Shown one piece after another: positions 4,784 through 60,450 of a stretch of 64,000 bases of DNA. The DNA is from an uncultured Verrucomicrobiae bacterium. Its GTDB lineage: Bacteria; Verrucomicrobiota; Verrucomicrobiia; Chthoniobacterales; Chthoniobacteraceae. The notes beneath the pieces were generated by a model that worked only from the letters and a program-made list of their open reading frames with translations, made no database searches and was not told where the DNA came from. The stretch lies in NCBI GenBank assembly GCA_963769025.1, contig CAVYKI010000009.1:608001-672000 (forward strand), given 5' to 3'. Position 1 is the stretch's first letter; each line of letters opens with the position of its first letter. A program made the translations under genes and the position numbers.

Positions 4784-6460
<1,677 letters not shown>

Positions 6461-6512
6461 AGGGAAGGGGATTGGAGTGAAGTGTTCAGGATCAAAATGG
6501 GGAATGAAGCAT

Positions 6513-9867: not shown

Positions 9868-9909
9868 AGCAGGCTTCTTCCGGTATGGAGCAGCCGAGGC
9901 TTCTCGTCG

Positions 9910-28700: not shown

Positions 28701-28832
28701 GACGCCTTCGCGGTCGCACAGCGCCACGGCGGGCAGGTCCAGCTCCGCCGCGCGGGCCGCGAGGCTCTCGGGGCGCGAGGCGCCGCGCAGAAAACTGCAC
28801 GCGCTGCGGGCATGGAGTTCGACGTATTCCAT
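25719..28832 (-). CDS. dnaE2: Error-prone DNA polymerase DnaE2 (ImuC), multiple frameshifts
   Basis: YVELHARSACSFLRGAS (PHP), GRGSAANS, WPDIDLD, PRHLGQHSGG, QWDKDD, FQVESRAQM, YGFPESHA, LLNNQPMGFY, RQRPGTAKG, C-terminal SHDFH. Confidence 0.93.
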
Positions 28833-28834
28833 GT

Positions 28835-30352: not shown

Positions 30353-30361
30353 GGTGCATCC

Positions 30362-31021
30362 TCATGCGATCGCGGATTCGCATTCGCCTTCCAAAACCGG
30401 CGCATGACGGCCGGCCGTGCGCCTGGGAAAGACGCGCCACGATGCCGCCGCGATGAGTTCGCGCTGCCAGCGGTGTTGTGCGGCGAGCGTCCAGGCTGCA
30501 CCGGCGGTGATGCGCACCTGCGCGGCTTCCACCATCGGCTGCGGCGTGAGCACCACGAGGGCGGCGGTTGTCTGCTCCGCGATTCGTTGCAGACGGTGCC
30601 ATGTGTTGGCCGGGATGCGTTGAAGCTGGCGCAGGGGCGCGGCTTGGAGGTCGAGCATGACGAGCGCGAGGTTGCCGTCGCGGAGCAGCAGGTCCGTCGC
30701 CTTCACGGCCTGCATGGCGTCCCCGCAGAAGACGACGAGCAGGCGTGCGAGCGCGGACGAGTTTTCCGGATCGAAAGTGCGCGCGGCATCCACCAAGGCT
30801 GCGAAGCAATGCTCGCGGCACAGCGCGCGCAGCATCGCGCGGATGAACAGCGCGCCGGCACCCGATGCGGTGGAAAGCTCCGTGAGCGCTGCGCGGCGCA
30901 GGCCGCCTTCCGTTGCGTCCAGATCGGCGAGGCCGGTGGGCAGGATGCCGCCGGGCCTTTGCGCCATCGCGGGGAATTTTTCCGCGAGCAAGCGACGCAG
31001 GTCGGCGAGGCGTTCGCCCAT
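30362..31021 (-). CDS. imuA: ImuA, RecA/SulA-like accessory protein (alt start 31054)
   Basis: LPTGLADLD..GGLRRAALTEL, ALVDAARTFDP, ATDLLLRDGNLALVMLD. Confidence 0.85.
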   Translation of the reverse strand: MGERLADLRRLLAEKFPAMAQRPGGILPTGLADLDATEGGLRRAALTELSTASGAGALFIRAMLRALCREHCFAALVDAARTFDPENSSALARLLVVFCGDAMQAVKATDLLLRDGNLALVMLDLQAAPLRQLQRIPANTWHRLQRIAEQTTAALVVLTPQPMVEAAQVRITAGAAWTLAAQHRWQRELIAAASWRVFPRRTAGRHAPVLEGECESAIA

Positions 31022-31034
31022 CGGCGGCGGCGAA

Positions 31035-31685
31035 TCAGGACTGCTTGCCGACATGACGCACGACTCCTTTCAGCAACCCGGCGAAATGCACCTGCTCCGC
31101 GGGCATGAGGATGTCCTTGAAGGCCGGATTCGACGCCTTCAGGCGCACGCGTTTGCCTTCGTAAAAAACGCGTTTCAGCGTGGCCTCGCGATCGTCGCCG
31201 ACGCACACCGCGGCGATTGCGCCGTGCGGCACCTTTGCATCCGGACGCAGCAGCACGAAATCGCCATCGAGGATGCCGTCGCCGGTCATCGAGTCGCCGC
31301 GCACGCGGAGGAGAAAATCATCGCGCCGGTGCGGCAGGATTTCATGCGCGTCGAGGACCGTGTCGGCCTGCGCGACGGCTTCCGAGAGCGGGCCGGCGGG
31401 GATCGTTCCGAGCAGGGGCAGGCCGCCGATGCCGAGCACGTGGCGGCCTTTTGCGGTGAGCCGCACGAGCCTCGAACGCCCCGGCACGCCGCCGCCCTGA
31501 ATCTCCACGAAGCCGCCGCGCTCCATTTTTTGCAGGGTCGGCGCGAGGCTGCTCTCGCCGGCCAGGCGCAGCGCCTTTGCCAGGTCCGGCACGAAGGCGG
31601 GGCGCTCCTTGCGCGCAAAGTCGGCCAGCGCGAGAGCGACGCGCTGCTGGACTGCGGTGAGGTCGGTGCTGATGGGTCGTGCCAT
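31035..31685 (-). CDS. lexA: LexA repressor (S24 peptidase + winged HTH)
   Basis: ATG 31685 MARPISTD; cleavage site LPLLGTIPAGP, catalytic GDSM and TLKR; heads the imuA-imuB-dnaE2 cassette. Confidence 0.88.
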   Translation of the reverse strand: MARPISTDLTAVQQRVALALADFARKERPAFVPDLAKALRLAGESSLAPTLQKMERGGFVEIQGGGVPGRSRLVRLTAKGRHVLGIGGLPLLGTIPAGPLSEAVAQADTVLDAHEILPHRRDDFLLRVRGDSMTGDGILDGDFVLLRPDAKVPHGAIAAVCVGDDREATLKRVFYEGKRVRLKASNPAFKDILMPAEQVHFAGLLKGVVRHVGKQS

Positions 31686-31722
31686 TCCATCGTGCAATAG
31701 CACGATGGAAAGAAGACGGCAA
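31685..31722 (-). promoter_or_regulatory. Putative lexA promoter overlapped by a perfect palindromic operator
   Basis: TTCCATCGTGC-AATA-GCACGATGGAA at 31685-31710; minus strand TTGCCG (31722-31717) N17 TATTGC (31699-31694). Confidence 0.7.
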
Positions 31723-32370
31723 GTTTCATCCCTCCGGCGGGGAGACCACGGGCATGATTTTAAGCGAGTCCGAAACTTAAGAGCCGGCAAGCCGGTCCGC
31801 GTCGCCCCAAAGCCGGTCGCCGTTTCGGCAAGCTCAAGCTCCCCGAGCCCAGCCGAAGGGAAAGCCAGCGACAAGGCAGTCCGTCGCGCAGTTTACGATT
31901 CGATCGCAAGCCTGGTTGAAAAATTGCGATCTCATCCTAGAATTTGGGTGTTCGCCCCAAAATGGTCCCCCGTTTTCCACAGACCGAGGCGCTTTTGTGC
32001 GTCGCGCCCCAGCTTTCGGGAATCAGCTCGTGCAGTGCGCAGAGCATCGTATTGCAAAGGGCAGCTCCGCGCATGCCCGGTGGAAGCAAGCCGCCGGTGG
32101 AAGCCGACGGAGTTGCATCCTACTTCAGCGGAACGAATCCAGAAGCAGCGGAGACGCGTCTTTTCAACGTGATAAAGTATAATAGTAATAAAAAACGGCG
32201 TTTTCTGCTTTTTCACATTGACTTGGCATCTCACAAATGAGAATAATGTGACCTTCGACGATTCAAGGCCAAGACCCCGTCGCCATTTTTCTTTCCGTCA
32301 TATTCTGAACCCCAACTTCTCCAGTAAGGGCATCGTCCTTCCAACAAAAACGAACGCGTCGCAAAACACC

Positions 32371-34152
32371 ATGAACACCCCAAAAATGAAAACAAACACA
32401 CCACTGAGGACGGGCATCTGTGCCGCGCTCGTCGCTCTCATCGGAGTCGCCATGCAAGGGGTGGGCTTCGCACTCACTGTGACGAACAATCAGGACAATG
32501 CACCCAGCGCGTCGCTCATCACGGGCAGCCTGCGCTGGGCCATCGTCAACACTCCGCCGAACGGGTTGGTCGACTTTTCTTCCTCCTTGAAGGGAAAGAC
32601 CATCGTGCTCAAAGCCGGCCAGGTGGTGATTGACAAGGTTTTGACCATCCGGGGCCTCGGATGCGATTTCCTGACGGTCAGCGGCAACAATGTGAGCCGC
32701 GTGTTTTATGTGAATGCGACCGGTCTCGCCCCGACGACCATCTCCGACATGACCGTCACCAAAGGCAATGGCACGGGGCCCGACCTCTCGGGCTTTGGCA
32801 ATGCCTCCCACGGCGGCGGAATCCACAACGTGGGCAATCTTCAGCTTCTGCGCGTCTGCGTGACCGCCAACAAGTCGCCGCTTGGCAGCGGCGGCGGCAT
32901 CTATAACCGAGGCACGCTCAGCGGGCTCACCGACAGCACCGTCTCCTACAATACCGCGGGCCAGAACGGCGGCGGCATCTTCGACGAGCAGGACATGACG
33001 ATCATCCGCAGTTCCATCACCAACAACTCCGCCGGCGGCGACGGTGGCGGCATCCAGGAGGCGGGCACGGCAAATCTGATCAATACGACGATCTCCTCGA
33101 ACACTGCAGCGGGCTCCGGTGGCGGGCTCAACGATCAGGGAGGAACCACGTTGAAGACCTACAACGTGACCATCACCGGCAATACTGCGGCGGTGGGTGG
33201 CGGGATGGCGAACGTGCCGTTCCTTGGCGCTTCGTGGGAGCTTCGCAACACGATCGTGGGCGGCAACAGTGCACCGAATGCGCCGGACGTGAGCAATGCA
33301 TTCGGTTCGCAAATCAGCCAGGGGAACAACCTCATCAAGGTCACCACCGGCGCCCCCTCAGGAAGTTTTGTCGCCAGCGACATCCTCGGTGCAGATCCAC
33401 GGCTCGGCCCCCTTCAGGAAAACGGGGGACCGACGCTGACTCACGCGCTCCTGCCCGGCAGCCCGGCCATCGACAAAGGCAGCAATGGCAACCTGCTCGC
33501 CAGCATGACCACGGATCAGCGGGGCTTCATGATCCGCGTCATCGACGGCGGCCTCAGCCTCACGGTGGACATCGGCGCCTACGAATACACCTCGGCAAAA
33601 GGGCTCAAGAACGAGGCAATCGCCAGTCTTACGGATTGCCTTTCCAGCACGCACTGCAAGACCCGCGTGTGGGCAGCTGCTGCGATCCTCCGCATCCAGC
33701 GCAGTCTGACGCCAGCGTTGTGGGTGACGGGGAGCGACACGACTCTCACGAGGTGTGGGGAACTCGTGTTCGATAAAGAGCAGGAGGCAGCCTATCTCAT
33801 TCAGAAGATCATCAAGTATAGCCCCGACCTGGCATGCGTGCAGTCGGCCACCTACGCGGTCCAGGATCTCGTGCTGGCGGATGAGCAGCTTGCCCGCGAG
33901 GCGATCCGCCTTGCCGTCGCCGCGAACGGCAACGCCAAAAAAATCCAGGACGCGAACAAGGAACTTGTCACCGCCCAGTCATATCTTGCCAAGCAGGACT
34001 ACAAGAAGGCCATCGAGCACTTTAAACATGCATGGGAAAAGGCGCAGGAATCGGTCGGCATCAAGCCGGACGACGACACATGCAAGGCCCTGAAGAAACA
34101 GTGGCAGAACGACGGCGACGACGATGACGACGACGAGGAGGACTGCAATTAA
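32371..34152 (+). CDS. Secreted right-handed beta-helix (choice-of-anchor Q type) protein with helical C-terminal domain and acidic tail
   Basis: Signal peptide; GSLRWAI; GGGIxN repeats; DPRLGPLQENGGPTLTHALLPGSPAIDKG...DQRG...DIGAYE; ends DGDDDDDDEEDCN. Confidence 0.85.
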   Translation: MNTPKMKTNTPLRTGICAALVALIGVAMQGVGFALTVTNNQDNAPSASLITGSLRWAIVNTPPNGLVDFSSSLKGKTIVLKAGQVVIDKVLTIRGLGCDFLTVSGNNVSRVFYVNATGLAPTTISDMTVTKGNGTGPDLSGFGNASHGGGIHNVGNLQLLRVCVTANKSPLGSGGGIYNRGTLSGLTDSTVSYNTAGQNGGGIFDEQDMTIIRSSITNNSAGGDGGGIQEAGTANLINTTISSNTAAGSGGGLNDQGGTTLKTYNVTITGNTAAVGGGMANVPFLGASWELRNTIVGGNSAPNAPDVSNAFGSQISQGNNLIKVTTGAPSGSFVASDILGADPRLGPLQENGGPTLTHALLPGSPAIDKGSNGNLLASMTTDQRGFMIRVIDGGLSLTVDIGAYEYTSAKGLKNEAIASLTDCLSSTHCKTRVWAAAAILRIQRSLTPALWVTGSDTTLTRCGELVFDKEQEAAYLIQKIIKYSPDLACVQSATYAVQDLVLADEQLAREAIRLAVAANGNAKKIQDANKELVTAQSYLAKQDYKKAIEHFKHAWEKAQESVGIKPDDDTCKALKKQWQNDGDDDDDDEEDCN

Positions 34153-34179
34153 GAGCCATTCGATCCTTGGTTGAATTCA

Positions 34180-34214
34180 GGGCGGCCGGAGTTTTCTCCG
34201 GCCGCCCTTTTTTT
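34180..34214 (+). terminator. Rho-independent terminator
   Basis: GGGCGGCCGGAG-TTTT-CTCCGGCCGCCC followed by T7. Confidence 0.88.
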
Positions 34215-34261
34215 GCATTTGCGTGGGGATCGCAGGGAATCGAATCGTGCACTGCACCTTC

Positions 34262-35395
34262 TCAGTCGCGCGATCTGGGTGCCGGAGGCAGCGCCACACC
34301 CATGGCTTCCAGGCTCTCGCGGATTCCTCCCAGCAGCCCCGCGAAGTCTCCCGGGGTGAGCTGACCGATCGTGCCGATGCGGAAGCTGTCGCCGTGGGAA
34401 AGCTTGCCCGGATAGATGACGAGGCCGCGCACGGCGAGCCGGTGGCAGAAGTCCTCGAAGTCAAATCGCGGGTCGGCCGGGAAGTGGAAGGCGATGATGA
34501 TCGGGCCTTGCAGTTCCCGGCGGAGGACAGGCCGGAATCCCATCCCCTCCATGCCTGACAAAAGCGTGCGCTGGCTTTCCCGGTAGCGCCTTTCCCGCGC
34601 GGCGACGCCGCCTTCGCGGGTGAGTTGATCGAGTGCCGCGGCGAGGGCGAGGCAGACATGCGTGGGGGGCGTGAATCGGAACTGGCCGCTGCTCTCGAGT
34701 TCGTCCCTCTGCGCTGGCAGATCGAGGCTCACGCTGCGGGCGTGGCCTCGCGCGGCATCGAGGGATGCGCTTCGCGCAATCGCAAAGGCAATGCCGGGGA
34801 CGCCCTCGATGCATTTGTTCGCCGAGGAGATCAGGCAGTCGATGTTCCATCTGGTGACATCCACCGGGATGCCGCCGAAACTGCTCATCGCATCCACCAG
34901 GAAGCGCCGCCCGGCTGCCGCGACGACGGCCCCGATTTCCGCGATGGGGTTGAGGATGCCGGTGGTGGTTTCGCAATGGACGGCAGCGACGTGGGTGACC
35001 TCGGGGTGTGCGGCGAGATGCACTTTTGCGGATCCCGGATCGTTCGGCTCGGTCTCCGGTGCTTCGATGCTGTCCACCGCGATGCCGAGCCGTTGCGCGA
35101 TGCCGATCATCCGGCGGCCGTACGCCCCGTTGGCGAGGACGAGGAGCTTTCCGTCCGGTGGGATGAGCGAGCCGATGGCGGCTTCGATGGCGAAGGTGCC
35201 GCTGCCTTGCATGGGCACTGCCGAGAACTCCGGGCCGGCGCCGGCGATCATCAGCAATTCCTGGCGAATGTGACGGACGATCTGGATGAAGGCCGCATCG
35301 CGCGGGCCCATGTCCCTTTGCATGGCGTCGCGCACGGCGTCGCTCGTGTTGATCGGTCCGGGCGTGAAGAGGCGCTGGCGGATGTGGTCCGTCAT
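34262..35395 (-). CDS. phnW: 2-aminoethylphosphonate aminotransferase (AepZ/PhnW family)
   Basis: LFTPGP, QGSGTFAIEA, NGAYGRR, VHCETTTGILNP, DAMSSFGG, SSANKCIEGVPG, QFRFTPPTH, IYPGK. Confidence 0.93.
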   Translation of the reverse strand: MTDHIRQRLFTPGPINTSDAVRDAMQRDMGPRDAAFIQIVRHIRQELLMIAGAGPEFSAVPMQGSGTFAIEAAIGSLIPPDGKLLVLANGAYGRRMIGIAQRLGIAVDSIEAPETEPNDPGSAKVHLAAHPEVTHVAAVHCETTTGILNPIAEIGAVVAAAGRRFLVDAMSSFGGIPVDVTRWNIDCLISSANKCIEGVPGIAFAIARSASLDAARGHARSVSLDLPAQRDELESSGQFRFTPPTHVCLALAAALDQLTREGGVAARERRYRESQRTLLSGMEGMGFRPVLRRELQGPIIIAFHFPADPRFDFEDFCHRLAVRGLVIYPGKLSHGDSFRIGTIGQLTPGDFAGLLGGIRESLEAMGVALPPAPRSRD

Positions 35396-36543
35396 TTCCG
35401 GGTGGCGAGGTATCGCATGAAGCGTTCCTTGATTGCAGGCGGCTTCACCGCGGGCCGGCCGAGTTTCTCCAGCGAGCCAGGGCGGATTTTCAAATGGAGC
35501 AGCGAGGGGCCGGCGTTCGGGCACATCTCCGCAAGACAGGCGGCGAGGTCCTCGGCACGCTCCGCGCTGAAGACGTTTCGGTAGCCCGCCGCCGCGGCGA
35601 TTCGCGCGAAATCAACCGTCGGGGAGACGGTCGCCTGCCCTCCGGTGGAATCGTGCGTTTCATTGTCGAGGATGATGTGGATCAAGCGCTCCGGCTGGTA
35701 GTGGCCGATGGTCGCAAGCGTCCCCATTTTCATGAGCGCCGCGCCGTCACCGTCGAGGATGATGACGCGCTGCCCCGGCAGTGTGTGCGCGATGCCGAGG
35801 CCAATCGCGGACGCGGTGCCCATACCTCCGACGACGTAGAGATTTCCCGGCCGGTCTGAAACGGTGAAGAGTTCGCGCCCGGTCTTGCCAGTCGTGGCCA
35901 CGATGGCGTCGTCGTCGGTGCAGAAGCGAAGGATGTGAGCGATGGCCTTACTGCGCGTGAGTCGCAAGGACGGCGAATCGAAAGGCAGAAGCCGTGCATG
36001 CGCCTTCACTGTGGCGGCTGCCGCGCGCGGCTCTAGCGCGCACGTCGCGAAGGTGTCCTTTTTCAGGATGAAGGCGAAGGGAAGCTGTCGCTCGCGCATG
36101 GAGGCATCGGCTTCGTCGAGGGCGGCATCCATTTCTCCCTGCTCCTCGGGGAACGGCAGCCACGGGATCTCCAGCGTGTCGAGCATCCGCTGCGTGATGC
36201 GGCCCATCAGTTCGTGCTGCGGCTCATCGGCGAGTCCCGGCTCGCCACGCCAGGTGGTGACGAGCAGCGTGGGGATGCGGAATGGATGGTTGAGCGACGT
36301 GAGCGGATTGATCGCGTTTCCGAGTCCCGAGTTTTGGCAAAGGGTCACCGTCTTGCGACCGGCGAGACTGGCGCCGAGGTTGATGCCGATTGCCTCGCCT
36401 TCACTCGTTGCGCCCACGTAGTCGAGTTCGCGGTCGTTGATCACAGCGTTGATCAGCGGCGTCAGGAAGGAGCAGGGGACTCCGGAAAAAAACGAGTATC
36501 CGAGAGCACGCAGCCTCGCGAGAAGCGCCCGTGCTTCGATCAT
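35392..36543 (-). CDS. aepY: Phosphonopyruvate decarboxylase
   Basis: FFSGVPCSFL, QNSGLGNAINPLTSL, WRGEPG..DEPQH, TTGKTGREL, DGDGAALM, HDSTGGQ; 4-bp overlaps with both neighbours. Confidence 0.93.
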   Translation of the reverse strand: MIEARALLARLRALGYSFFSGVPCSFLTPLINAVINDRELDYVGATSEGEAIGINLGASLAGRKTVTLCQNSGLGNAINPLTSLNHPFRIPTLLVTTWRGEPGLADEPQHELMGRITQRMLDTLEIPWLPFPEEQGEMDAALDEADASMRERQLPFAFILKKDTFATCALEPRAAAATVKAHARLLPFDSPSLRLTRSKAIAHILRFCTDDDAIVATTGKTGRELFTVSDRPGNLYVVGGMGTASAIGLGIAHTLPGQRVIILDGDGAALMKMGTLATIGHYQPERLIHIILDNETHDSTGGQATVSPTVDFARIAAAAGYRNVFSAERAEDLAACLAEMCPNAGPSLLHLKIRPGSLEKLGRPAVKPPAIKERFMRYLATRK

Positions 36544-37544
36544 TCCGCGCTGAGTGGGGCGAGGCTGAGCTTCGCGGGCGGACGCTTCGGCCGCGCCGAT
36601 GTTGCCAGCGCGGCTTTCTCCGCACCGTCGGCGATTTTTGCGGACTGGCCGGCGCTGTCGCCAGGAAGGTATCGCCTTTCGGCCTCGGTGAGTTCGTCGG
36701 CGTTCTGGAGGCGGAAGACTTCCTGCAAGGGAGCAATTTCCCCATCGATGCCGGTCACGGACTGTTCCTCGAAGATCTGGCGGCACGTCGCCTGCATCGC
36801 CGCGATCGAACTCCTCAGATTGTGATTTGCCCAGATGACCGTGCTGAATCCGGCTTCGGCGAAAACCGCCGCCGGCGTCCGACTGAAGGTCGTGGGCACC
36901 ACGATGAGCGGGGTGGAGCGATCCCACTCTGAGGCAAAGGCGAGGACCTCGTCTGCGTCAGTCCGCTTGCTGTGCACGAGCAGGGCATCCGCTCCGGCAT
37001 CGGCATACAGGTGCGCGCGGCGAAGAACCTCCGCAATTTCCACTCCCGCAATGAATCCCTCCAGTCGCGCGATGACGCAAAAATCCGCACGGCTTTGCGT
37101 GTCCTTAGCCGCCTTGATCTTTCCGGTGAACTCCATCGGATCCACCAGCTTCTTTTTGCCCTCGCTCAGGGAATTGCGCTTCGGAAAAATCTGGTCTTCG
37201 ATGCACACGCCGTCGATTCCGCGCTGATTGAGCTTCCGCACGAGTCGGCGGACGTTGTTGAAATTCCCAAACCCCGAGTCCCCATCGAGCAGGATCGGCA
37301 GCCGGGTGGCGTCGCGCATGAATTCCACGATTTCGAGCACCTGGGTCCAGCTCGCCTCGTTGCAATCGCGGACGCCGAGCGTGGCCGACATGGAAAGCCC
37401 GCTGGCCCAGATCCCGGCAAAGCCCGCCTCCTCGACGATCTTCGCGCTCAGCCCGTTGTGAGCTTCCATGAAGAACTCCATTTCCCCGGAATACAGCAGT
37501 TCTTTCAGCCCGCGAGGCTGGGGTGGATTGTGATTATGTTTCAA
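36540..37544 (-). CDS. pepM: Phosphoenolpyruvate mutase (start uncertain: TTG 37544 or further upstream)
   Basis: MEAHNGLSA, GIWASGL, RDCNEASWT, DGDSGFGNFNN, IEDQIFPKRNS, LLVHSK, IWANH; directly upstream of ppd. Confidence 0.88.
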   Translation of the reverse strand: MKHNHNPPQPRGLKELLYSGEMEFFMEAHNGLSAKIVEEAGFAGIWASGLSMSATLGVRDCNEASWTQVLEIVEFMRDATRLPILLDGDSGFGNFNNVRRLVRKLNQRGIDGVCIEDQIFPKRNSLSEGKKKLVDPMEFTGKIKAAKDTQSRADFCVIARLEGFIAGVEIAEVLRRAHLYADAGADALLVHSKRTDADEVLAFASEWDRSTPLIVVPTTFSRTPAAVFAEAGFSTVIWANHNLRSSIAAMQATCRQIFEEQSVTGIDGEIAPLQEVFRLQNADELTEAERRYLPGDSAGQSAKIADGAEKAALATSARPKRPPAKLSLAPLSAE

Positions 37545-37867
37545 AGGATGGGGGAGGTGGAAGGCTGTCGCAATTCCCTTGCCCGCAACAATCATGCTAG
37601 CGGAGGAAGTACTCCGTTCAAGGATGGACTGCCTTCCTGCAGCGGGTTCCATCCCTGCACGTCCGGCAAATTCGAGGTGTCCTGGCGGGCACTGCGTTTC
37701 CTTCCGGCGATGCCATTTGGGTGCAGCAAGGGCGACCGGCTGCTTGACGGCAGCGATGCGGAAAATACCGTGGCGGCCGTGAGCCGTGACGAACATCCAG
37801 CATCAAAGATCAGAGCAGTGCCGGCCCGGTCCATCCGCCAAGGAATGCGCAGCGCGGGGAATTGATC

Positions 37868-39070
37868 ATGTCGCTCTTTTCTTGGCTTGGCATCGGAAAA
37901 GCCAGTCCCGCTCCTTCTGAGCAATCACGGGCTGACCTGACCGGAACTGCAGACCTCCCATCCGTCTTTTGCGATCCGGCCTCGAATAACGCGCGGGACG
38001 CGTTGGACCTCGGAAAAATCCGCATCGTCGAAGATCCCACAGTCGCGGATCTCCTTTGGATGCGGAAGGGGTATCGGGACTGGTTCGGAAAACTCCGGCC
38101 GTTTCAGCTCTTGAATCATTTTCCAAACGAGCGCGCGATGACCGACAAGGGATTCCTCGCAGAGCACCTCGGCAGGTTTTCCAGGAACCAGTCGAAGTAT
38201 GACTTCGGCATGACGGATCTCGTCCAGGAGACCTACTGCCTCTACATTCCGGAAGAGAGGGAGCGTTTCTTCAGCCAGCTTCCGGCTTCTGAATCGAAGG
38301 AGAATCTTTGGATACTCAAGCCCTGCTCCTCGTCCCGCGGCAGGGGCATCCAAATCCTCTGGCAGTTTGATGAGTTGCGCGATGCGTATGCGCATCCCGA
38401 AGAATTCGCATTCGATCCGCAGAAGGACCGCTACGTCATCCAAAGATACATCCGGAACCCGCTGCTGCTCGACGGGCGCAAGTCCGAAATCCGGATCTAC
38501 TGGCTCGTCGCCTCCCTCGATCCGCTCCTCGTCCTCATGTATCGCGAAGGAACGGTGCGGCTGAATACGCAGCCATTCAGCCTCGATGATTTTGAAAATA
38601 CGCTGATCCACGTGACCAATGTGTTTCAGCAAAAGGCCCATCCGGACTACGATCCGTCGGCTGTCTTGAAATGGAGTTTTTCGGATTGGGAAAACTACCT
38701 CATCCAGGATCGGAAGCTCGCGCCGGAGAACTGGGTCGAGGGACACCTGAAGCCGCAGCTCAAGCGCATGCTGTCCTTCGTGGTGGACGCCGCGCGGCCC
38801 ACGCTCTCGCAAGATCTCGGCAACGGACTCCCCTTCGGCCTGTTCGGGGCCGACATCATTTTCGATGACACACTGCATCCCTGGCTCACGGAGGTTCAGA
38901 AGGGACCGGGGCTCAGCTTCGACGACCCGATCAAGCAGAAGGTGATTCCAGCCATGCTGAACGAGGGGATCGCCATCATGCTCGAAGTACGACGCCGCAA
39001 ACGCGACGGCCTCGGATTGGCGCAGCTGGATGCCGTCCAAGGATTCGAGTGGGTGATCCGTGAGACGTGA
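37868..39070 (+). CDS. Tubulin-tyrosine ligase / TTLL family ATP-grasp ligase
   Basis: NHFP...TDK, WILKPCSSSRGRGI, YVIQRYIRNPLLLDGRKSEIRIYWLV, HVTNVFQQK, GLFGADIIFD..LHPWLTEVQKGP follow TTL-family motif order. Confidence 0.85.
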   Translation: MSLFSWLGIGKASPAPSEQSRADLTGTADLPSVFCDPASNNARDALDLGKIRIVEDPTVADLLWMRKGYRDWFGKLRPFQLLNHFPNERAMTDKGFLAEHLGRFSRNQSKYDFGMTDLVQETYCLYIPEERERFFSQLPASESKENLWILKPCSSSRGRGIQILWQFDELRDAYAHPEEFAFDPQKDRYVIQRYIRNPLLLDGRKSEIRIYWLVASLDPLLVLMYREGTVRLNTQPFSLDDFENTLIHVTNVFQQKAHPDYDPSAVLKWSFSDWENYLIQDRKLAPENWVEGHLKPQLKRMLSFVVDAARPTLSQDLGNGLPFGLFGADIIFDDTLHPWLTEVQKGPGLSFDDPIKQKVIPAMLNEGIAIMLEVRRRKRDGLGLAQLDAVQGFEWVIRET

Positions 39071-39223
39071 GGCGCGGCAGAGCTGCTTCGAGCGGCTGCC
39101 GACGATGCTGAGGAACACCAGCAGCACCACCAGCCCGCCGCCTGCGTGCCGAACATCCTTGGGTGGCTTGGCTCACGCAGAGCGTGGCTGCGGTTCCTTC
39201 ACCGGCGGGCGAAAAGCGCGGCC

Positions 39224-40183
39224 CTATTTCGAAAGGATGAATTTGTGAAGATGCCCGAACGCGCTCCACTCCGCGACGATGAGATTGCCGTCCTTGTCGA
39301 TGGATGCGCCGTGCGGTGAGTTCGTGATGCCGTCCTTCCACTGGTCTTCCTTCAGCCCGAAGTTTGCACGTTGTGCCGCCACGGGATTGTCTCCGACCTG
39401 CGCGACGATCGCGCCAGTCTTGTCGAGCACCGTCACGCGTCCCTGCAGCTCGGGGACCACGGCGTAGTCGCCGCGGATGTGGACCGCGGCGGGCAGGCGG
39501 AGATCGGCCTGGATGACCTTCACGAAATTGCCGTCGAGATCCCAGTGCTCGACGCGGTTGTTATTGCGATTGCAGACGAAGAGCAGCGGCTTTTCCCCGC
39601 GCGTGTCGAGGGCGATGCCGTGGCACGTCTTGAAGAATCCGACGGAAGGGCCGGGCGCGCCGAATGCCTTCACGAATTTGCGATCCTTGTCGAATTTGAA
39701 GATGTGGTTGGAACCGTATCCGTCGGCCACGAAGATGGAGCCATCGGGGCCCACCGTGACGGCACAGGGGTTGAAGCCGTTCGCATCTTTGCACACTCCG
39801 GATTCCTCGGGGTATTTGAGGGACCACTCCTGCGTCCCGTCGAGCTTGAGCTTGATGACTTCATGCGCCGAAGGACGCGCGCCGTAGATCACCTCCGTGC
39901 CGTTTTCCTCGCGAATTTCGAGGCCGTGGATTTTTGCCGGGCCAAAGGCGCGGACAAATTTGCCAGCGGGAGAGAAAACGAGGATGCCGCGCGGTGTGTC
40001 GGTGGTGACGTAGATGTTGCCCGCCTTGTCGATCACCGCGCCGCCGTGGCACGCGCCGATTGGCTGGCCGCCGGGCGTCTTTTCGAAGAAGTCCGGTGCG
40101 ATGGAAAATTTCTGCTCCGCCGCGATGGCGTGGCCGGACAGGAGGGCGATGATTCCGAGGAGGGAGTGGGTAAGGCGTTTCAT
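39224..40183 (-). CDS. Secreted NHL-repeat six-bladed beta-propeller protein
   Basis: Signal peptide; HGGAVIDKAGNIYV, DGSIFVADGYGS, FKTCHGIALD, SPHGASIDKDGNLIVAEW. Confidence 0.85.
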   Translation of the reverse strand: MKRLTHSLLGIIALLSGHAIAAEQKFSIAPDFFEKTPGGQPIGACHGGAVIDKAGNIYVTTDTPRGILVFSPAGKFVRAFGPAKIHGLEIREENGTEVIYGARPSAHEVIKLKLDGTQEWSLKYPEESGVCKDANGFNPCAVTVGPDGSIFVADGYGSNHIFKFDKDRKFVKAFGAPGPSVGFFKTCHGIALDTRGEKPLLFVCNRNNNRVEHWDLDGNFVKVIQADLRLPAAVHIRGDYAVVPELQGRVTVLDKTGAIVAQVGDNPVAAQRANFGLKEDQWKDGITNSPHGASIDKDGNLIVAEWSAFGHLHKFILSK

Positions 40184-41049: not shown

Positions 41050-42915
41050 TCACTCGCGGGCCGGGCTCAGTCTCACGATTTTCTTCCCCGGCATCGCGCT
41101 TTTCACGAGCTCGGGGATCTGCTCGATGGCTTCGAAATCGTATTTCTGGATGGCGGGATCGAGTTTGTCCCACGGGACAAGGTAAGGCGAAGTCCGGTTC
41201 GCCTTGTCTTGCGTTTTCCCGTGACGCCAGCCGGCCAGCCATCGCTCCGCGTTCCATCGCTGGTGTTCCACCGGGGCGAGCGCCTTGATGTCGTTTTCAT
41301 CGAGGGCTTCGATCGCTTCGCCCGCATGGTCGTCCGCCACAAGCTCGCAACCGATGGCGCGGAGCTTCACGCGAAGATGGTCGGCCTGCTGGCGGTTGGA
41401 CTCGCGGATGTCATCCCGGAGGTCATCCCAGTCGCGGAGCGTGGGATCATTCTCCGGCGTGCGCTGCGAAGTCGCGGCGCGCCGTCCGACGAACCGCCGG
41501 TGAATTGCGCGTGCGAGTTCATCCAGCTCGTCGCCTCGAAATGCGCCGTCCGAGCACGTGTCGTCCACGGTGCCGAAGGGCACAATCCGCACCTTGTCGC
41601 CTTCCGCGGCTTCGAGGATGCGCGCCACTGAATCCTTCGAGCGGATGCGCACGTGGATCCCGCAGGATTTGCACTCGCGCAGGACATCCTGGAGGCGGAG
41701 GGCCACCTCGAGGCTGCGGCCATCGTCGTCGAGGCCGAAGTAGATATGCAGCAGTGCGGCGGGTTCGGCCGCCCAGCCCTCGATAAGCTTGCGCGCCTGC
41801 TGCGACTCGGCCTCCACCGCGTGAAATTGGATGTCGCAAATGTCGCGGCCGGCGAGAATCGGATAGCGGAACAGGAGGCGGTCGCGCTGCGTGCCGGCGT
41901 GGCGGTCGATCACCGAAATGCGGAGCGGCTTTCCATTTGCGAACTGCCCCATCTTTGCCGCGCGTAACGCGAGGCTGCGTCCCATCCTCCCGAAGCCGAG
42001 AATCACCACATGGACCGAGCGCGGATCGAGCGGTCCGATGCCCTTGCCGTCGAGCGGGTGATCGCGCAGCACGCGGCGCGCTTCGCTGTCATAGACGTCG
42101 AAGAAGTGCAGCCGGCTTGCCGCATCGTTTCTCTCCTGATCGATCCACCGGTCCACCGCCTCACGCAGATGAATGTCGGAGAGGTGGACGTGACGGCGCG
42201 GACGTCGCCCCGATATCCCCGCATTCAGGCACGCCTCACGGATTCCGGCCGCGATCCGCACATTGGTCGGATCCGAAGGCGTGATGACGATGATTTCCTC
42301 GGCCTTCGTGATCCGTGCCTCCGCGAGCACCTCCGGTTTCGAAGCATCGCCCAGAATCACGCACGCACCCGCCGCCTCGCAGGCATCGGTGAATGAAGCC
42401 TCCGGGTTGGGATCGATGATCACGACACGCTTTGGCGGGGGCACACGTTCGCCGTCCAAGCGCTTCAGGAAACGGCTTGCTGCCTCCACGATCCGCTTCC
42501 CGCCACGCACCTTGCCCCCGTCCATCAGATCCATCGCGATGGCGAATCCCTTCTGCCCCAGGCCGCACACGACGTAGTGATCCTCCCACCGCTTTAGCAA
42601 AAGCCGTCGCCATTCGCGCTTCAGCCGCCTCCCGATCAGGATCGCGCCCGCGCAGAACGCCGTCGCCACCCCGGCCCAGCGGCCCACTTCGAGCCACGCA
42701 TTTGCCCCGTGCTCGAAATGCGCCGTGTGCAGGATCAGCATCTGGATGCCGTGATACAGCGCTCCCAGAAAATGGACCTCCCCGTGGTGGCCGTGTTCGA
42801 GTTCGTAGCGCAGCACGCCCACTGCCCCTGCGACGACCGTCAGCACACCAAACAGGACGAGAAACCACCACTGCCTGCGCGGGATTCGGAGGTAATCGGA
42901 GGCGCCGTGGCTCAT
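41050..42915 (-). CDS. Membrane protein: 2 TM + two TrkA-N/RCK domains + C-terminal RyR domain
   Basis: Two hydrophobic helices; HYVVCGLGQKG and HVVILGFGRMG Rossmann motifs; LARAIH..WDDL..RESNRQQADH and EHQRWNAERWLAGW..LVPWDKL RyR motifs. Confidence 0.82.
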   Translation of the reverse strand: MSHGASDYLRIPRRQWWFLVLFGVLTVVAGAVGVLRYELEHGHHGEVHFLGALYHGIQMLILHTAHFEHGANAWLEVGRWAGVATAFCAGAILIGRRLKREWRRLLLKRWEDHYVVCGLGQKGFAIAMDLMDGGKVRGGKRIVEAASRFLKRLDGERVPPPKRVVIIDPNPEASFTDACEAAGACVILGDASKPEVLAEARITKAEEIIVITPSDPTNVRIAAGIREACLNAGISGRRPRRHVHLSDIHLREAVDRWIDQERNDAASRLHFFDVYDSEARRVLRDHPLDGKGIGPLDPRSVHVVILGFGRMGRSLALRAAKMGQFANGKPLRISVIDRHAGTQRDRLLFRYPILAGRDICDIQFHAVEAESQQARKLIEGWAAEPAALLHIYFGLDDDGRSLEVALRLQDVLRECKSCGIHVRIRSKDSVARILEAAEGDKVRIVPFGTVDDTCSDGAFRGDELDELARAIHRRFVGRRAATSQRTPENDPTLRDWDDLRDDIRESNRQQADHLRVKLRAIGCELVADDHAGEAIEALDENDIKALAPVEHQRWNAERWLAGWRHGKTQDKANRTSPYLVPWDKLDPAIQKYDFEAIEQIPELVKSAMPGKKIVRLSPARE

Positions 42916-42928
42916 GGTCGTTTGCGAT

Positions 42929-43228
42929 TCATTTTCGAGGCGGCACAATTTCGTAGCCGAGCGAAAGGATCGCCTTCAGCGTGCCGAGCGCGGTGATGCG
43001 GTCATATTCCTTCTCCGAATCCGGCAGCTCCGCGTACGGCACCAGGCACGGGTGCTTTTTCGCCGCATCGTCGCGACTCGGGCCAAAGGTCCACCCATCC
43101 GCCATCCGCTGCGCAGCCCAGCTATCGTGCGCGTTCTCCGCGAGCCGCTCGGTCAGCGCCATCATCTCTGGCGGCAGAAGCACGCCGGAGGCATCGATGG
43201 CCTTCGGGTGGTACGTGGAATCGCTCAT
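42929..43228 (-). CDS. Stand-alone RyR (ryanodine receptor repeat) domain protein
   Basis: YHPKAID, LAENAHDSWAAQRMADGWTFGPSRDDAAKKHPCLVPYAELPDSEKEYDR. Confidence 0.9.
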   Translation of the reverse strand: MSDSTYHPKAIDASGVLLPPEMMALTERLAENAHDSWAAQRMADGWTFGPSRDDAAKKHPCLVPYAELPDSEKEYDRITALGTLKAILSLGYEIVPPRK

Positions 43229-53012: not shown

Positions 53013-53317
53013 GGGCGACAGAGAATGAGGTGCCCCTTCGTTAAAACCCCATCTTTCGTTCGAGGCAACGCATTGACGAGGGCCGGGCTCACCGTTGCGC
53101 GCGATTGCCAACGCGCGGGAAGGCGCGCGCGCCGGCAGGGCTAAACACGGCACTTCTATCGTTGCCGCCAGCGGGTTTTCGGGGGCGGGGTGCGGGAGAG
53201 ACCTGGAGATTGGGGGACCCTCCTCTCCCTGTCTCCCCGTCTCCAAGTCCCCCTCTCCACTCCCCGCTCCACCCCGGGATTGCGTGTGCTGTCCGCGCTG
53301 TGTACCGCTCGCTCCCG

Positions 53318-58988: not shown

Positions 58989-59002
58989 TTCGCCGCGCCC
59001 GC

Positions 59003-60340: not shown

Positions 60341-60450
60341 CAGCGAACGCTACACGTGCCGTGCGGCCAACGGCAACGTCCGGTGTGTGACGAATCCCCT
60401 TCTCGACTTCACCGCTGCGCGTTCCGTAGAAACGCAGCCCGCAATTTTCC

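What the first reader, a model, noticed from the sequence alone, without database searches (positions are those of the whole stretch)
34262..39070. Phosphonate (AEP) biosynthesis operon paired with a eukaryote-like tubulin-tyrosine-ligase family enzyme: candidate new phosphonate-conjugation system
Seen: pepM-ppd-AEP transaminase are translationally coupled on the minus strand, and a TTL/TTLL-type ATP-grasp gene is divergent across roughly 320 bp. No cytidylyltransferase, CDP-alcohol phosphotransferase, LicD or glycosyltransferase is next to the three genes. Established: these three enzymes make 2-aminoethylphosphonate; AEP is usually activated as CMP-AEP for glycans or lipids; TTL/TTLL enzymes activate a protein carboxylate as an acyl-phosphate and ligate an amine; other ATP-grasp ligases build phosphonopeptides. 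Inference: the TTL-like enzyme may amide-link AEP through its amine to a protein, peptide or polymer carboxylate, i.e. an undescribed phosphonate modification or phosphonopeptide pathway.
Basis: partly seen in the sequence, partly recalled or inferred. Interest (0 to 1): 0.87.

Follow-up and report, generated by a model that had tools for sequence, protein, structure and literature searches.

The report
Bacterial TTL-type ligase wedded to aminoethylphosphonate synthesis
A bacterial relative of the tubulin-modifying ligases is repeatedly found next to, and sometimes fused with, the three enzymes that make 2-aminoethylphosphonate, which points to an undescribed way of attaching this phosphonate through an amide bond.

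Summary
The window encodes intact, translationally coupled PepM, Ppd and AEP transaminase genes on the minus strand (34262-37595). A divergent gene (37868-39070) is a clear tubulin-tyrosine-ligase (TTL) family ATP-grasp enzyme by sequence and by predicted fold. No cytidylyltransferase, LicD, CDP-alcohol phosphotransferase or glycosyltransferase was found anywhere in the 64 kb.

The pairing is not chance. Of 33 related TTL loci fetched from genomes, 6 have pepM-ppd-AEPT directly beside the TTL gene. In five of these the order is a co-directional TTL-pepM-ppd-AEPT operon. No other neighbour family recurs. The protein libraries also hold fusions of this TTL type to PepM (5 sequences), to Ppd, and to a degenerate AEP-transaminase-like domain.

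The functional link is therefore well supported. The chemistry is inferred: most likely an ATP-dependent amide ligation of AEP's amine to a carboxylate. The acceptor is unknown; I rank protein or peptide first, then glycan uronate, then a small molecule.

At least 20 well-flanked family loci have no pepM nearby, and no residue separates linked from unlinked enzymes. None of my 10 literature searches, seven of which aimed at this pairing, found it in print. I rate it a new variant of a known kind, interest 0.72.

The parts
34262..35395 (-). 2-aminoethylphosphonate:pyruvate transaminase (AEPT/PhnW type), 377 aa, last gene of the operon
   Evidence: NF010006 470.1 bits (cut-off 296), TIGR02326 453.6, TIGR03301 440.5. 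Pfam Aminotran_5. The ATG overlaps the ppd stop as ATGA.
35392..36543 (-). Phosphonopyruvate decarboxylase (Ppd), 383 aa
   Evidence: TIGR03297 430.2 bits (cut-off 312.5). Pfam TPP_enzyme_N and TPP_enzyme_C. The ATG overlaps the pepM stop as ATGA. 83% identical to the L002 Ppd.
36540..37595 (-). PEP mutase (PepM), about 351 aa. The start is uncertain: the ORF is open up to 37796 and relatives align from residue 26-30. It is not fused to a nucleotidyltransferase.
   Evidence: TIGR02320 349.2 bits (cut-off 319.55). Pfam PEP_mutase E 7.6e-59. Start candidates.
37596..37867 (.). Divergent intergenic region between pepM and the TTL gene, presumably holding the promoters of both. It contains a TTGACG block shared with the Chthoniobacter locus L002.
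   Evidence: Coordinates. Pairwise alignment with the L002 intergenic region shows a conserved GCTTGACGG. The consensus sigma-70 scan found 0 sites, so the promoter assignment is inference.
37868..39070 (+). TTL-family ATP-grasp ligase, 400 aa (alternative TTG start at 37862). It has the core TTL fold only, with no extra domain. It is the candidate AEP-amide ligase.
   Evidence: Pfam PF03133 166.3 bits. PDB phmmer best hits are 5vlq, TTLL7, TTLL6 and TTL, E 2.5e-26 to 1e-17. AlphaFold2 model pLDDT 89.5, pTM 0.87. Foldseek top hits are TTLL6 and TTL, TM about 0.7-0.8. Motifs aligned to TTLL6 are kept.
34179..34208 (.). Strong GC-rich hairpin (13 pairs, 11 of them G-C) with a T-run, lying between the convergent AEPT gene and ORF 32218-34152. 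It is the likely operon end.
   Evidence: Terminator-like site. The scan as a whole found no more sites than shuffles (3 found against 4.3 expected), so only the position and stem strength speak for it.

Best explanation
The four genes form one functional module.

PepM converts PEP to phosphonopyruvate. Ppd decarboxylates that to phosphonoacetaldehyde. AEPT transaminates it to 2-aminoethylphosphonate (AEP). These three enzyme identities are shown by equivalog models; the pathway itself is established knowledge.

The TTL-family ATP-grasp enzyme then uses ATP to activate a carboxylate as an acyl-phosphate and couples it to the primary amine of AEP, giving an N-acyl-AEP amide. This step is inferred from the general TTL/ATP-grasp mechanism. 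It also follows from the fact that AEP has an amine but no carboxylate.

This would replace the usual CMP-AEP (PntC) activation logic: the acceptor is activated rather than the phosphonate.

The acceptor is not encoded by any conserved neighbour. My split of the acceptor, within the overall confidence of 0.65 that AEP is the amine substrate of this ligase:
- Protein or peptide Glu/Asp side chain or C-terminus, about 0.3. This rests on family precedent and on the link to SET lysine methyltransferases.
- Glycan uronic acid or another envelope carboxylate, about 0.2.
- Free amino acid or metabolite, about 0.15.
For: Shown:
1. Enzyme identities.
2. Conserved synteny: pepM-ppd-AEPT lies directly beside the TTL gene in 6 of 33 related loci. 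L002 (Chthoniobacter) is divergent like the window. L011 (Nitrosomonas), L013, L014 and L015 (Verrucomicrobiota; L014 and L015 are near-identical) and L019 (Puniceicoccaceae) are co-directional TTL-pepM-ppd-AEPT, with an overlap or at most about 85 nt between the TTL stop and the pepM ORF.
3. No other neighbour family recurs. The next largest cluster is a generic ABC-transporter family, 1-9 kb from the TTL genes and at varying positions.
4. Fusions:
   - P0148, 674 aa: TTL plus PEP_mutase, E 6.7e-55, best NCBIfam model TIGR02320. Five members, all 674 aa, from JGI, Logan and ENA.
   - P0149, 743 aa: Ppd (TIGR03297 318.8 bits, above the cut-off of 312.5) plus TTL.
   - P0121, 708 aa: TTL plus a degenerate AEPT-like domain. 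The three best NCBIfam hits are all AEP transaminase models, E 3.5e-18 to 4.5e-13. It is 28% identical to the window AEPT, E 6e-15.
5. The catalytic apparatus is kept. K151, the Gly-rich SSRGRGI loop, the KSEIR motif, D329 and E342 are invariant in 34 sequences and align with the TTLL6 motifs. In TTL, Asp318 and Glu331 bind the two Mg2+ ions and Arg202 binds the acceptor carboxylate (PMC3563685, passages read).
6. No PntC-type nucleotidyltransferase lies in the window or in the flanks of the 5 non-redundant linked loci.
7. For a protein acceptor: SET-TTL fusions P0071 and P0074 are 64-66% identical to the TTLs of the linked loci L011, L014 and L015. L013 has a SET gene fragment right after AEPT, and L016 has a SET gene upstream of its TTL.
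Against: - No biochemical evidence of any kind exists. The amine donor and the acceptor are both inferred.
- 27 of 33 family loci lack pepM within the DNA held. At least 20 of these have 4 kb or more on both sides.
- The closest relative, L001 (78% identical), has no pepM in its 4 kb upstream, though its contig ends about 80 bp after the TTL gene.
- Linked and unlinked TTLs are mixed in two well-supported clades. The label is not significantly clustered: 47-48 of 500 shuffles do as well.
- Only one weak column (E against D at position 61) distinguishes the two groups. Nothing in the sequence marks AEP specificity.
- The Mg-ligand Asn of the EVN motif is Gln (EVQ) throughout this family. The consequence is unknown.
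- P0149 and P0121 are single-member clusters, so a fusion created by a sequencing error cannot be excluded for those two.
- In L002 a phosphonoacetaldehyde hydrolase (PhnX, TIGR01422 298 bits) sits in the same operon. That is a catabolic enzyme and does not fit a purely biosynthetic module.
Confidence: 0.65

Rival explanations
1. Glycan or envelope variant. The ligase amidates a uronic-acid or other cell-envelope carboxylate with AEP. This parallels Campylobacter jejuni Cj1438C, which uses ATP to amidate the glucuronate of the growing capsule with ethanolamine phosphate or serinol phosphate.
For: - Precedent read in passages of PMC12409886. AEP is a close phosphonate analogue of ethanolamine phosphate (my own knowledge).
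- In L002 the cassette sits inside a polysaccharide locus: a GNVR/Wzc-like kinase, Wzy_C, a Polysacc_synt flippase 0.45 kb downstream of the TTL gene (one 113-aa ORF between), a GT1/GT4 glycosyltransferase and Acyl_transf_3.
- L019 has three GT2 genes and an ABC exporter convergent on the cassette.
- In the unlinked L006, the TTL gene follows a Glyphos_transf gene, an IspD-like cytidylyltransferase and a GT2.
Against: - The window itself has no glycosyltransferase or polysaccharide gene in 64 kb.
- L011, L013 and L014 also lack them in the DNA held.
- All characterised TTL-family enzymes act on protein carboxylates (established knowledge).
- Sequence kinship with Cj1438C was not tested, because I held no sequence of it. 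It did not appear among the PDB hits.
Confidence: 0.2
2. Small-molecule variant. The ligase joins AEP to the carboxylate of a free amino acid or metabolite, for example a glutamyl-AEP or another aminoacyl-AEP. The product would be a soluble phosphonate conjugate, either a phosphonopeptide-like natural product or a storage or osmolyte form.
For: - Fusion to metabolic enzymes (PepM, Ppd, AEPT-like) is typical of steps in one small-molecule pathway.
- The module is a compact four-gene operon with TTL as first gene.
- In three Thiotrichales loci a sodium:dicarboxylate symporter-family gene lies directly upstream of the TTL gene.
Against: - No exporter, resistance gene or further tailoring gene is conserved with the cassette.
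- The Pfam families of the amino-acid-ligase ATP-grasps are not matched. The only other hit is ATPgrasp_YheCD at 21.3 bits, below its cut-off of 26.8.
- The TTL family is known only for protein substrates.
- The link with SET domains points to proteins.
Confidence: 0.15
3. Independent chemistry. The TTL-like enzyme adds an ordinary amino acid such as Glu to some protein, possibly one of the AEP enzymes. It is linked to the AEP genes only by regulation or by a shared process, and AEP itself goes elsewhere through enzymes encoded outside the window.
For: - Most family members (27 of 33 loci) have no pepM nearby.
- No residue separates linked from unlinked enzymes.
- Eukaryotic relatives use Glu, Gly or Tyr as the amine (established knowledge).
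- A PntC route could be encoded outside the 64 kb.
Against: - Three different fusion architectures with the three AEP enzymes and operon-internal placement in five loci are hard to explain by co-regulation alone.
- The C-termini of the cassette proteins show no conserved acidic tail that a TTL-type enzyme might target.
Confidence: 0.1
4. Chance adjacency of two unrelated genes in this one genome.
For: The two are divergently transcribed in the window and are not in one operon.
Against: - The same neighbourhood recurs in 6 of 33 loci, across Verrucomicrobiota and a Nitrosomonas MAG, in two gene orders, and there are fusions as well.
- Only about 5% of bacterial genomes carry phosphonate biosynthesis at all (abstract of PMC8942020). 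Adjacency by chance would therefore be expected in far fewer than 1 in 1000 loci (my estimate).
Confidence: 0.02

Closest known systems
Eukaryotic tubulin-tyrosine ligase and TTLL glutamylases/glycylases (PF03133)
   Same: - Same Pfam family, well above the cut-off.
- Same three-subdomain ATP-grasp fold over the full length: Foldseek TM about 0.7 to TTLL6 and 0.7-0.8 to TTL.
- Conserved nucleotide and Mg2+ motifs and the KxxxR acceptor-site arginine (PMC3563685).
   Different: - Only 22-25% identical.
- 400 aa core only, with no microtubule-binding extension.
- EVQ in place of the EVN Mg-ligand motif throughout the bacterial family.
- The hosts are bacteria, and no tubulin gene is seen in the window.
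- The genomic partner is a phosphonate pathway, which is unknown for any TTL or TTLL.
TTLL12-type SET + TTL architecture
   Same: Relatives of the window enzyme occur as SET-TTL fusions (P0071, P0074) or beside a SET gene (L016, L013). [quoted passage not shown]
   Different: - The window has no SET gene.
- Kinship with TTLL12 specifically was not tested.
- According to that abstract, TTLL12 has no demonstrated ligase activity.
ATP-grasp ligases in phosphonate gene clusters (phosphonopeptide ligases; the Paenibacillaceae AEP core flanked by two ATP-grasp ligases; ATP-grasp plus Mur-ligase clusters)
   Same: An ATP-grasp carboxylate-amine ligase is encoded beside phosphonate biosynthesis genes. 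An AEP core with ATP-grasp ligases has been noted and proposed to give a peptide or a phosphonylated peptidoglycan (PMC8942020, passages).
   Different: - The ATP-grasp family differs: TTL here, not an amino-acid-ligase type.
- The taxa differ.
- That paper's text has 0 occurrences of 'tubulin', 'Verrucomicrob' or 'Nitrosomonas', and its one held supplement has no PF03133 or TTL.
- The rhizocticin and phosphonoalamide ligases are recalled from memory and were not checked.
Campylobacter jejuni Cj1438 C-terminal domain (glucuronate amidoligase)
   Same: It works like the proposed step: ATP-dependent amide formation between a carboxylate and the amine of a 2-aminoethyl-phosphoryl compound (ethanolamine phosphate) (PMC12409886).
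   Different: - Its acceptor is a capsule glucuronate.
- Its product's phosphate is later removed by a phosphatase, which could not happen with a C-P bond.
- Sequence relationship was not tested.
PntC-dependent AEP tailoring (CMP-AEP for phosphonoglycans and phosphonolipids)
   Same: Same three-gene AEP core.
   Different: No PntC, LicD or CDP-alcohol phosphotransferase lies in the window or in the linked loci, and PepM and AEPT are not fused to a nucleotidyltransferase.

Membership tests
TTL/TTLL family (PF03133) | Match to the family HMM above the gathering score | tested here: met
   166.3 bits against a cut-off of 20.1, E 1.1e-48, profile positions 7-281 of 292. All 120 listed homologues carry PF03133.
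TTL/TTLL family (PF03133) | TTL-type three-subdomain ATP-grasp fold | tested here: met
   AlphaFold2 model pLDDT 89.5, pTM 0.87. Foldseek best hits are TTLL6 (E 1.7e-24, TM 0.71) and TTL (TM up to 0.80 normalised to the target).
TTL/TTLL family (PF03133) | Catalytic motifs: ATP-binding Lys, Gly-rich loop, acceptor-site Arg, and the Asp/Glu(/Asn) Mg2+ ligands | tested here: inconclusive
   K151, S156/G158, K205/E207/R209, D329 and E342 are invariant in A1 and align with the TTLL6 motifs. The Asn of EVN is an invariant Gln (Q344). The mapping onto TTL Asp318, Glu331 and Arg202 (PMC3563685) goes through the TTLL6 alignment and my recollection of the motif. It was not made by a direct alignment.
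TTL/TTLL family (PF03133) | Ligation of an amino acid to a tubulin (or other protein) carboxylate | not testable with these tools
   This needs an enzyme assay. No tubulin-family hit appeared among the 148 window ORFs scanned.
AEP biosynthesis core (PepM-Ppd-AEPT) | PEP mutase equivalog | tested here: met
   TIGR02320, 349.2 bits against a cut-off of 319.55.
AEP biosynthesis core (PepM-Ppd-AEPT) | Phosphonopyruvate decarboxylase equivalog | tested here: met
   TIGR03297, 430.2 bits against a cut-off of 312.5.
AEP biosynthesis core (PepM-Ppd-AEPT) | AEP transaminase equivalog, with the three genes in one operon | tested here: met
   NF010006, 470.1 bits against a cut-off of 296. ATGA overlaps at both junctions.
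PntC-dependent phosphonoglycan/phosphonolipid clusters | Phosphonate-specific cytidylyltransferase (LicC/PntC type), free or fused to PepM or AEPT | tested here: not met
   No NTP_transferase-type hit in 148 of 161 window ORFs of 150 aa or more. PepM (351 aa) and AEPT (377 aa) are single-domain. None was found in the flanks of L002, L011, L013, L014 or L019. Elsewhere in the genome: not testable.
PntC-dependent phosphonoglycan/phosphonolipid clusters | LicD or CDP-alcohol phosphotransferase, or a glycosyltransferase beside the core | tested here: not met
   None in the window. Glycosyltransferases are present near the cassette in L002 and L019 only.
Phosphonopeptide-type ATP-grasp amino-acid ligases | Membership of an amino-acid-ligase ATP-grasp Pfam family | tested here: not met
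   The only non-TTL hit is ATPgrasp_YheCD, 21.3 bits, below its cut-off of 26.8. NCBIfam gave 0 families.
Cj1438C-type uronate amidoligase | Sequence kinship with Cj1438 residues 445-776 | not tested
   I held no sequence of it. It did not appear among the PDB sequence hits.
Known anti-phage defence components | Match to a PADLOC model | tested here: not met
   0 families for the TTL protein and for five neighbours.

The most novel reading that the evidence does not exclude
The TTL-like enzyme is a protein-modifying ligase that amide-links AEP to glutamate or aspartate side chains, or to C-termini, of bacterial proteins. This would be a new post-translational modification of about +107 Da, placing a non-hydrolysable phosphonate on proteins. 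It would also be the first assigned function for the widespread bacterial TTL family. In some lineages the enzyme would act together with a SET lysine methyltransferase on the same target.
Probability: 0.3. Interest if true: 0.92.

Novelty: new variant of a known kind. Interest (0 to 1): 0.72.

Why it matters
Phosphonates are a sizeable part of the biological phosphorus pool. Apart from the CMP-AEP route, little is known about how AEP is attached to cell components.

A conserved, partly fused TTL-AEP module gives a concrete and cheaply testable candidate for a second attachment logic, in which the acceptor carboxylate is activated rather than the phosphonate.

It would also give a first function to bacterial members of a family known only for building the eukaryotic tubulin code. 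Until now such bacterial members have been read as 'eukaryote-like' host-interaction factors; the Riftia symbiont paper PMC6918071 does so.

If the acceptor is a protein, it would be a new post-translational modification. It would also bear on old reports of protein-bound AEP, which I recall but did not check.

Tried and rejected
- **Precursor peptide beside the cassette.** 1029 ORFs of 25-130 aa within 1.5 kb of the TTL gene or cassette in 31 loci plus the window were compared all against all. Every conserved group was a shadow ORF lying over the TTL or AEPT genes.
- **Specificity-determining residues.** Only one weak column (E against D at position 61) separates linked from unlinked TTLs.
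- **Conserved acidic C-terminal tails** on the cassette proteins as possible TTL targets: none found.
- **Conserved partner in the unlinked loci.**
  - 106 of 138 neighbour ORFs within 4.5 kb of the TTL gene in 20 loci were scanned.
  - 32 outermost or very long ORFs were dropped to fit the size limit.
  - L007, L010, L022, L026 and L030 were left out as near-duplicates, and L032 and L033 as partial.
  - The contexts are heterogeneous, with nothing recurrent except SET (L016) and, within the three related Thiotrichales loci, an SDF-family symporter.
- **Sigma-70 consensus scan of 34000-39400:** 0 promoter-like sites.
- **PADLOC defence models:** none.
- **Literature.**
  - 'tubulin tyrosine ligase' + 'phosphonate': 0 papers.
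  - 'tubulin-tyrosine ligase' + 'pepM': 19 papers, none relevant by title or abstract.
  - 'PF03133': 2 irrelevant papers.
  - 'aminoethylphosphonate' + amide + ATP-dependent + ligase: only the Borg preprint, irrelevant in the passages read.
  - 'phosphoenolpyruvate mutase' + 'tubulin': 6 papers, none relevant by title or abstract.
  - 'tubulin tyrosine ligase' + 'Verrucomicrobia': 2 papers; passages of one were read and were irrelevant, the other was judged by its title.
- **Not attempted.**
  - No complex prediction was run, because no claim of binding is made.
  - I could not test whether genomes with unlinked TTL genes carry pepM elsewhere, or whether the window's genome carries pntC elsewhere.

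Full report
**What is in the window.**

The region 34262-39070 holds four intact genes.

On the minus strand lie three genes:
- PEP mutase, 36540-37595: TIGR02320, 349.2 bits against a cut-off of 319.55.
- Phosphonopyruvate decarboxylase, 35392-36543: TIGR03297, 430.2 bits against 312.5.
- 2-aminoethylphosphonate (AEP) transaminase, 34262-35395: NF010006, 470.1 bits against 296.

Both junctions are ATGA stop/start overlaps. A strong hairpin followed by a T-run lies at 34179-34208, just past the last gene.

On the plus strand lies a 400-aa ORF at 37868-39070. It is 272 bp from the most upstream plausible pepM start. It matches Pfam TTL (PF03133) at E 1.1e-48 over nearly the whole profile. It matches no NCBIfam model.

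Its best sequence matches among solved structures are:
- 5vlq, deposited as 'LOC100158544 protein', which is TTLL3 by my recollection;
- TTLL7;
- TTLL6;
- TTL.

These have E-values from 2.5e-26 to 1e-17.

An AlphaFold2 model built on a 34-sequence alignment is confident (pLDDT 89.5, pTM 0.87). Its best structural matches are TTLL6 and TTL over the full length, with TM about 0.7-0.8.

I scanned 148 of the 161 ORFs of 150 aa or more in the 64-kb window against Pfam. The 13 left out were shadows of the four genes or same-frame variants of ORFs already scanned. No LicC/PntC-type nucleotidyltransferase, LicD, CDP-alcohol phosphotransferase or glycosyltransferase turned up.

The immediate neighbours are unrelated to phosphonates:
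- a 644-aa protein with a choice-of-anchor-Q domain;
- an NHL-repeat protein;
- a 3-keto-disaccharide-hydrolase-family protein;
- a TrkA_N/RyR-domain protein;
- a GlnD-like 878-aa protein;
- a LexA/ImuB/DnaE2-type cassette.

**Is the pairing more than chance?**

The TTL protein has many bacterial relatives. A search gave 246 hits with E of 0.001 or better. The 120 listed run from 88% down to 47% identity, and all carry PF03133.

A scan of one genome per species with an alignment of 34 of these (A1) returned 33 loci. The closest are from Chthoniobacteraceae MAGs (78% and 65% identity). The window therefore probably comes from a member of the Verrucomicrobiota; this is inference.

A tblastn search with the window's enzymes found pepM, ppd and AEPT directly beside the TTL gene in 6 of the 33 loci:
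- L002 (Chthoniobacter sp.) has the window's divergent arrangement.
- L011 (Nitrosomonas MAG), L013, L014 and L015 (Verrucomicrobiota; L014 and L015 are near-identical) and L019 (Puniceicoccaceae) have a co-directional order TTL-pepM-ppd-AEPT.
- In the co-directional loci the pepM ORF overlaps the TTL stop or starts within about 85 nt of it.

An all-against-all clustering of 2015 ORFs from the loci found no other neighbour family shared by more than a few unrelated loci. The next largest cluster is a generic ABC-transporter family lying 1-9 kb away at varying positions. All the other large clusters are shadow ORFs of the TTL gene.

About 5% of bacterial genomes have phosphonate biosynthesis at all (abstract of PMC8942020). 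Adjacency by chance would therefore be expected in well under 1 in 1000 loci; that figure is my estimate.

**Fusions.**

A search for longer relatives found P0121 (708 aa). Its C-terminal 300 residues are 28% identical to the window's AEPT (E 6e-15). Its three best NCBIfam hits are the three AEP transaminase models, far below their cut-offs (E 3.5e-18 to 4.5e-13). In that alignment the lysine of the window's SSANKCIEG stretch faces an alanine. My reading, from recollection, is that this lysine is the PLP lysine, which would make the domain a non-catalytic AEPT-like module.

I then searched 1.84 billion cluster representatives with P0121. This gave 77 proteins at E of 1e-30 or better. I scanned 15 of the longer ones among the 150 listed against Pfam. 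Two more fusions came out:
- P0148, 674 aa: TTL followed by PEP_mutase (E 6.7e-55). TIGR02320 is the best NCBIfam model at 273 bits, below its cut-off.
- P0149, 743 aa: phosphonopyruvate decarboxylase (TIGR03297, 318.8 bits, above the cut-off of 312.5) followed by TTL.

P0148 stands for five sequences, all 674 aa, from JGI, Logan and ENA assemblies. P0149 and P0121 are single-member clusters.

So this TTL type is found fused to each of the three AEP enzymes in turn, or to a relic of one. Together with the synteny this is strong genomic evidence that the ligase works in the AEP pathway.

**What argues for caution.**

27 of the 33 loci have no pepM in the DNA held. For at least 20 of them that DNA reaches 4 kb or more on both sides. 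L001, the closest relative, has no pepM in 4 kb upstream, and its contig ends about 80 bp after the TTL gene.

I built a maximum-likelihood tree of 32 TTL rows. L006 was left out because its gene is split, and L032 and L033 because they are partial. The linked genes fall into two well-supported clades, where they are mixed with unlinked ones:
- the window with L001, L002 and the two L003 copies (support 99/97);
- a 10-row clade (support 100/99) holding L011, L013, L014, L015 and L019 together with the unlinked L009/L010, L016 and L017/L022.

The label needs 3-5 changes on the tree. It is not significantly clustered: 47-48 of 500 shuffles do as well.

No alignment column separates linked from unlinked enzymes, apart from a weak E/D difference at position 61. 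Two readings follow. Either the unlinked genomes obtain AEP from genes elsewhere, or the family accepts other amines.

In L002 a bona fide phosphonoacetaldehyde hydrolase (PhnX, TIGR01422, 298 bits against a cut-off of 220) directly follows AEPT. This mixes a catabolic enzyme into the operon.

**Mechanism.**

The first three steps are established chemistry for these equivalogs: PEP to phosphonopyruvate, then to phosphonoacetaldehyde, then to AEP.

For the fourth enzyme the ATP-grasp machinery is conserved. K151, the SSRGRGI loop, the KSEIR motif, D329 and E342 are invariant across 34 sequences. They align with the corresponding TTLL6 motifs.

In TTL, Asp318 and Glu331 hold the two Mg2+ ions, and Arg202 binds the carboxylate that is activated (PMC3563685, passages read). 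The correspondence of R209, D329 and E342 to those residues is my inference through the TTLL6 alignment.

One family-wide difference is Gln in place of Asn in the EVN motif. The family also has Arg and Lys at the two positions where the deposited 'engineered TTLL6' sequence differs from wild type. As I recall, those positions govern chain initiation against elongation; I did not read that paper.

AEP has an amine and no carboxylate. It can therefore only be the nucleophile. The product should be an N-acyl-AEP amide, and the acceptor carboxylate would be the group activated by ATP. That would explain why no cytidylyltransferase accompanies these cassettes: 0 of the 5 non-redundant linked loci and the window have one in the DNA scanned.

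**The acceptor.**

Nothing conserved next to the cassette encodes the acceptor. There is no conserved small ORF and no conserved acidic tail on the cassette proteins.

Three readings remain.

*Protein or peptide.*
- Every characterised TTL-family enzyme modifies a protein carboxylate.
- Close relatives of the linked enzymes (64-66% identical to those of L011, L014 and L015) are fused to a SET domain (P0071, with 20 member sequences, and P0074).
- L016 has a separate SET gene about 600 bp upstream of its TTL gene.
- L013 has a SET gene fragment convergent on the end of AEPT.
- L006 has a PKMT-type methyltransferase downstream of its TTL gene.
- L003 has two tandem TTL genes near a C39-peptidase ABC exporter.

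*Glycan or envelope carboxylate.*
- L002 sits in a polysaccharide locus: Wzc-like kinase, Wzy_C, a flippase 0.45 kb downstream of the TTL gene, glycosyltransferase and acyltransferase.
- L019 abuts three GT2 genes.
- C. jejuni Cj1438C shows that ATP-dependent amidation of a glucuronate with ethanolamine phosphate exists (PMC12409886, passages read).

*Small molecule.*
- Fusion to metabolic enzymes and the compact operon fit a soluble product.
- ATP-grasp ligases beside an AEP core have been proposed to make peptides in Paenibacillaceae (PMC8942020).

I rank these about 0.3, 0.2 and 0.15 within an overall 0.65 for 'AEP is the amine substrate of this ligase'.

**Comparison with what is known, and novelty.**

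The protein is a member of the TTL family by HMM and by fold. Whether it has the family's defining activity on proteins is untested.

It works like the ATP-grasp tailoring ligases of phosphonate clusters and like Cj1438C. It is not a member of the amino-acid-ligase families: the only other Pfam hit is below its cut-off. Kinship with Cj1438C was not tested.

The inventory of phosphonate gene neighbourhoods that I read in passages (PMC8942020) mentions ATP-grasp ligases around AEP cores. It has no occurrence of 'tubulin', 'Verrucomicrob' or 'Nitrosomonas'. Its one held supplement has no PF03133 or TTL. Other supplements of that paper were not held, so a listing there cannot be excluded.

Seven of my 10 searches across PubMed Central and bioRxiv aimed at this pairing. 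None found a paper linking a TTL-family enzyme with phosphonate genes. Bacterial TTL proteins have been mentioned only as 'eukaryote-like' factors in a symbiont (PMC6918071).

I therefore rate this a new variant of a known kind: a phosphonate cluster with an ATP-grasp tailoring ligase of a family never before tied to phosphonates. There is a substantial chance that it is something more unusual, namely a protein phosphonate modification.

**Verdict.**
- Observation: confirmed.
- Interpretation: partly supported. The functional link is well supported by synteny and fusions; the chemistry and the acceptor are inferred.
- Interest: 0.72.

Noticed in passing
window 5072-6688, 18417-20279, 25719-29009, 53105-54905, 57175-59218, 60430-62164: Several genes are split into 2-4 adjoining ORFs in different frames. 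They are an FAD oxidoreductase, an acyl-CoA dehydrogenase, a DnaE2-type polymerase (PHP, NTPase, finger, HHH/OB pieces), a sulfatase, a squalene-hopene cyclase and a class-I Glu/Gln tRNA synthetase. This indicates frameshift errors in the assembly or pseudogenes. The four cassette genes are intact.
   Followed up: partly
window 25719-31874: A LexA-like S24 peptidase (31035-31874), an ImuB-like IMS-family polymerase (28835-30352) and the split DnaE2-type polymerase lie in a row. This looks like an SOS mutagenesis cassette.
   Followed up: no
L002 5590-6378 (-): In the Chthoniobacter locus a phosphonoacetaldehyde hydrolase (PhnX, TIGR01422, 298 bits against a cut-off of 220) directly follows AEPT in the pepM-ppd-AEPT operon, and a solute-binding protein gene lies beside it. 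Biosynthetic and catabolic AEP enzymes share one operon. The window has no such gene.
   Followed up: partly
P0121 residues 416-689: The AEPT-like domain fused to TTL has lost the lysine that aligns with the K of the window's SSANKCIEG stretch. I take this to be the PLP lysine, from recollection. If so, it may be a non-catalytic AEP-binding module.
   Followed up: partly
L016 1230-1886; L013 5029-5223; P0071, P0074: A SET-domain gene lies beside the TTL gene (L016) or beside the TTL-AEP cassette (L013). SET-TTL fusion proteins also exist and are 64-66% identical to the TTLs of linked loci. The architecture recalls eukaryotic TTLL12.
   Followed up: partly
L003 6954-17159: Two tandem TTL paralogues (63-64% identical to the window's) lie beside a C39-peptidase ABC exporter, a second ABC protein and a pyroglutamyl-peptidase-domain protein. 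This layout resembles a peptide-modification cluster.
   Followed up: no
P0122, P0168, P0206, P0226: More distant TTL relatives carry an N-terminal Temptin_C domain. The meaning of this is unknown.
   Followed up: no
L020, L025 8636-9907 and the matching L026 ORF; L031 2492-4231: In three related Thiotrichales loci a sodium:dicarboxylate symporter-family gene lies directly upstream of the TTL gene and runs the same way (Pfam scanned for L020 and L025; the L026 ORF clusters with them). In L031 a prolyl-tRNA synthetase gene ends 10 nt before the TTL ORF.
   Followed up: no
window 37735-37775 and L002 about 9870-9910: A GCTTGACGG block is conserved between the two divergent intergenic regions, with a TAnnnT hexamer 16 nt downstream. 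It could be the TTL promoter. The consensus scan did not call it.
   Followed up: partly
window 41050-42948 (-) and 43289-45925 (-): One protein combines TrkA_N with a RyR domain. An 878-aa protein has a weak GlnD/DUF294 nucleotidyltransferase match. The functions of both are unknown.
   Followed up: no
L009 and L028 record titles: The MAGs titled Akkermansia muciniphila (L009) and Klebsiella pneumoniae (L028) carry TTL genes. The L009 gene is nearly identical to that of a Pedosphaera MAG (L010), and the L028 gene sits on a long branch. The species labels look doubtful.
   Followed up: no
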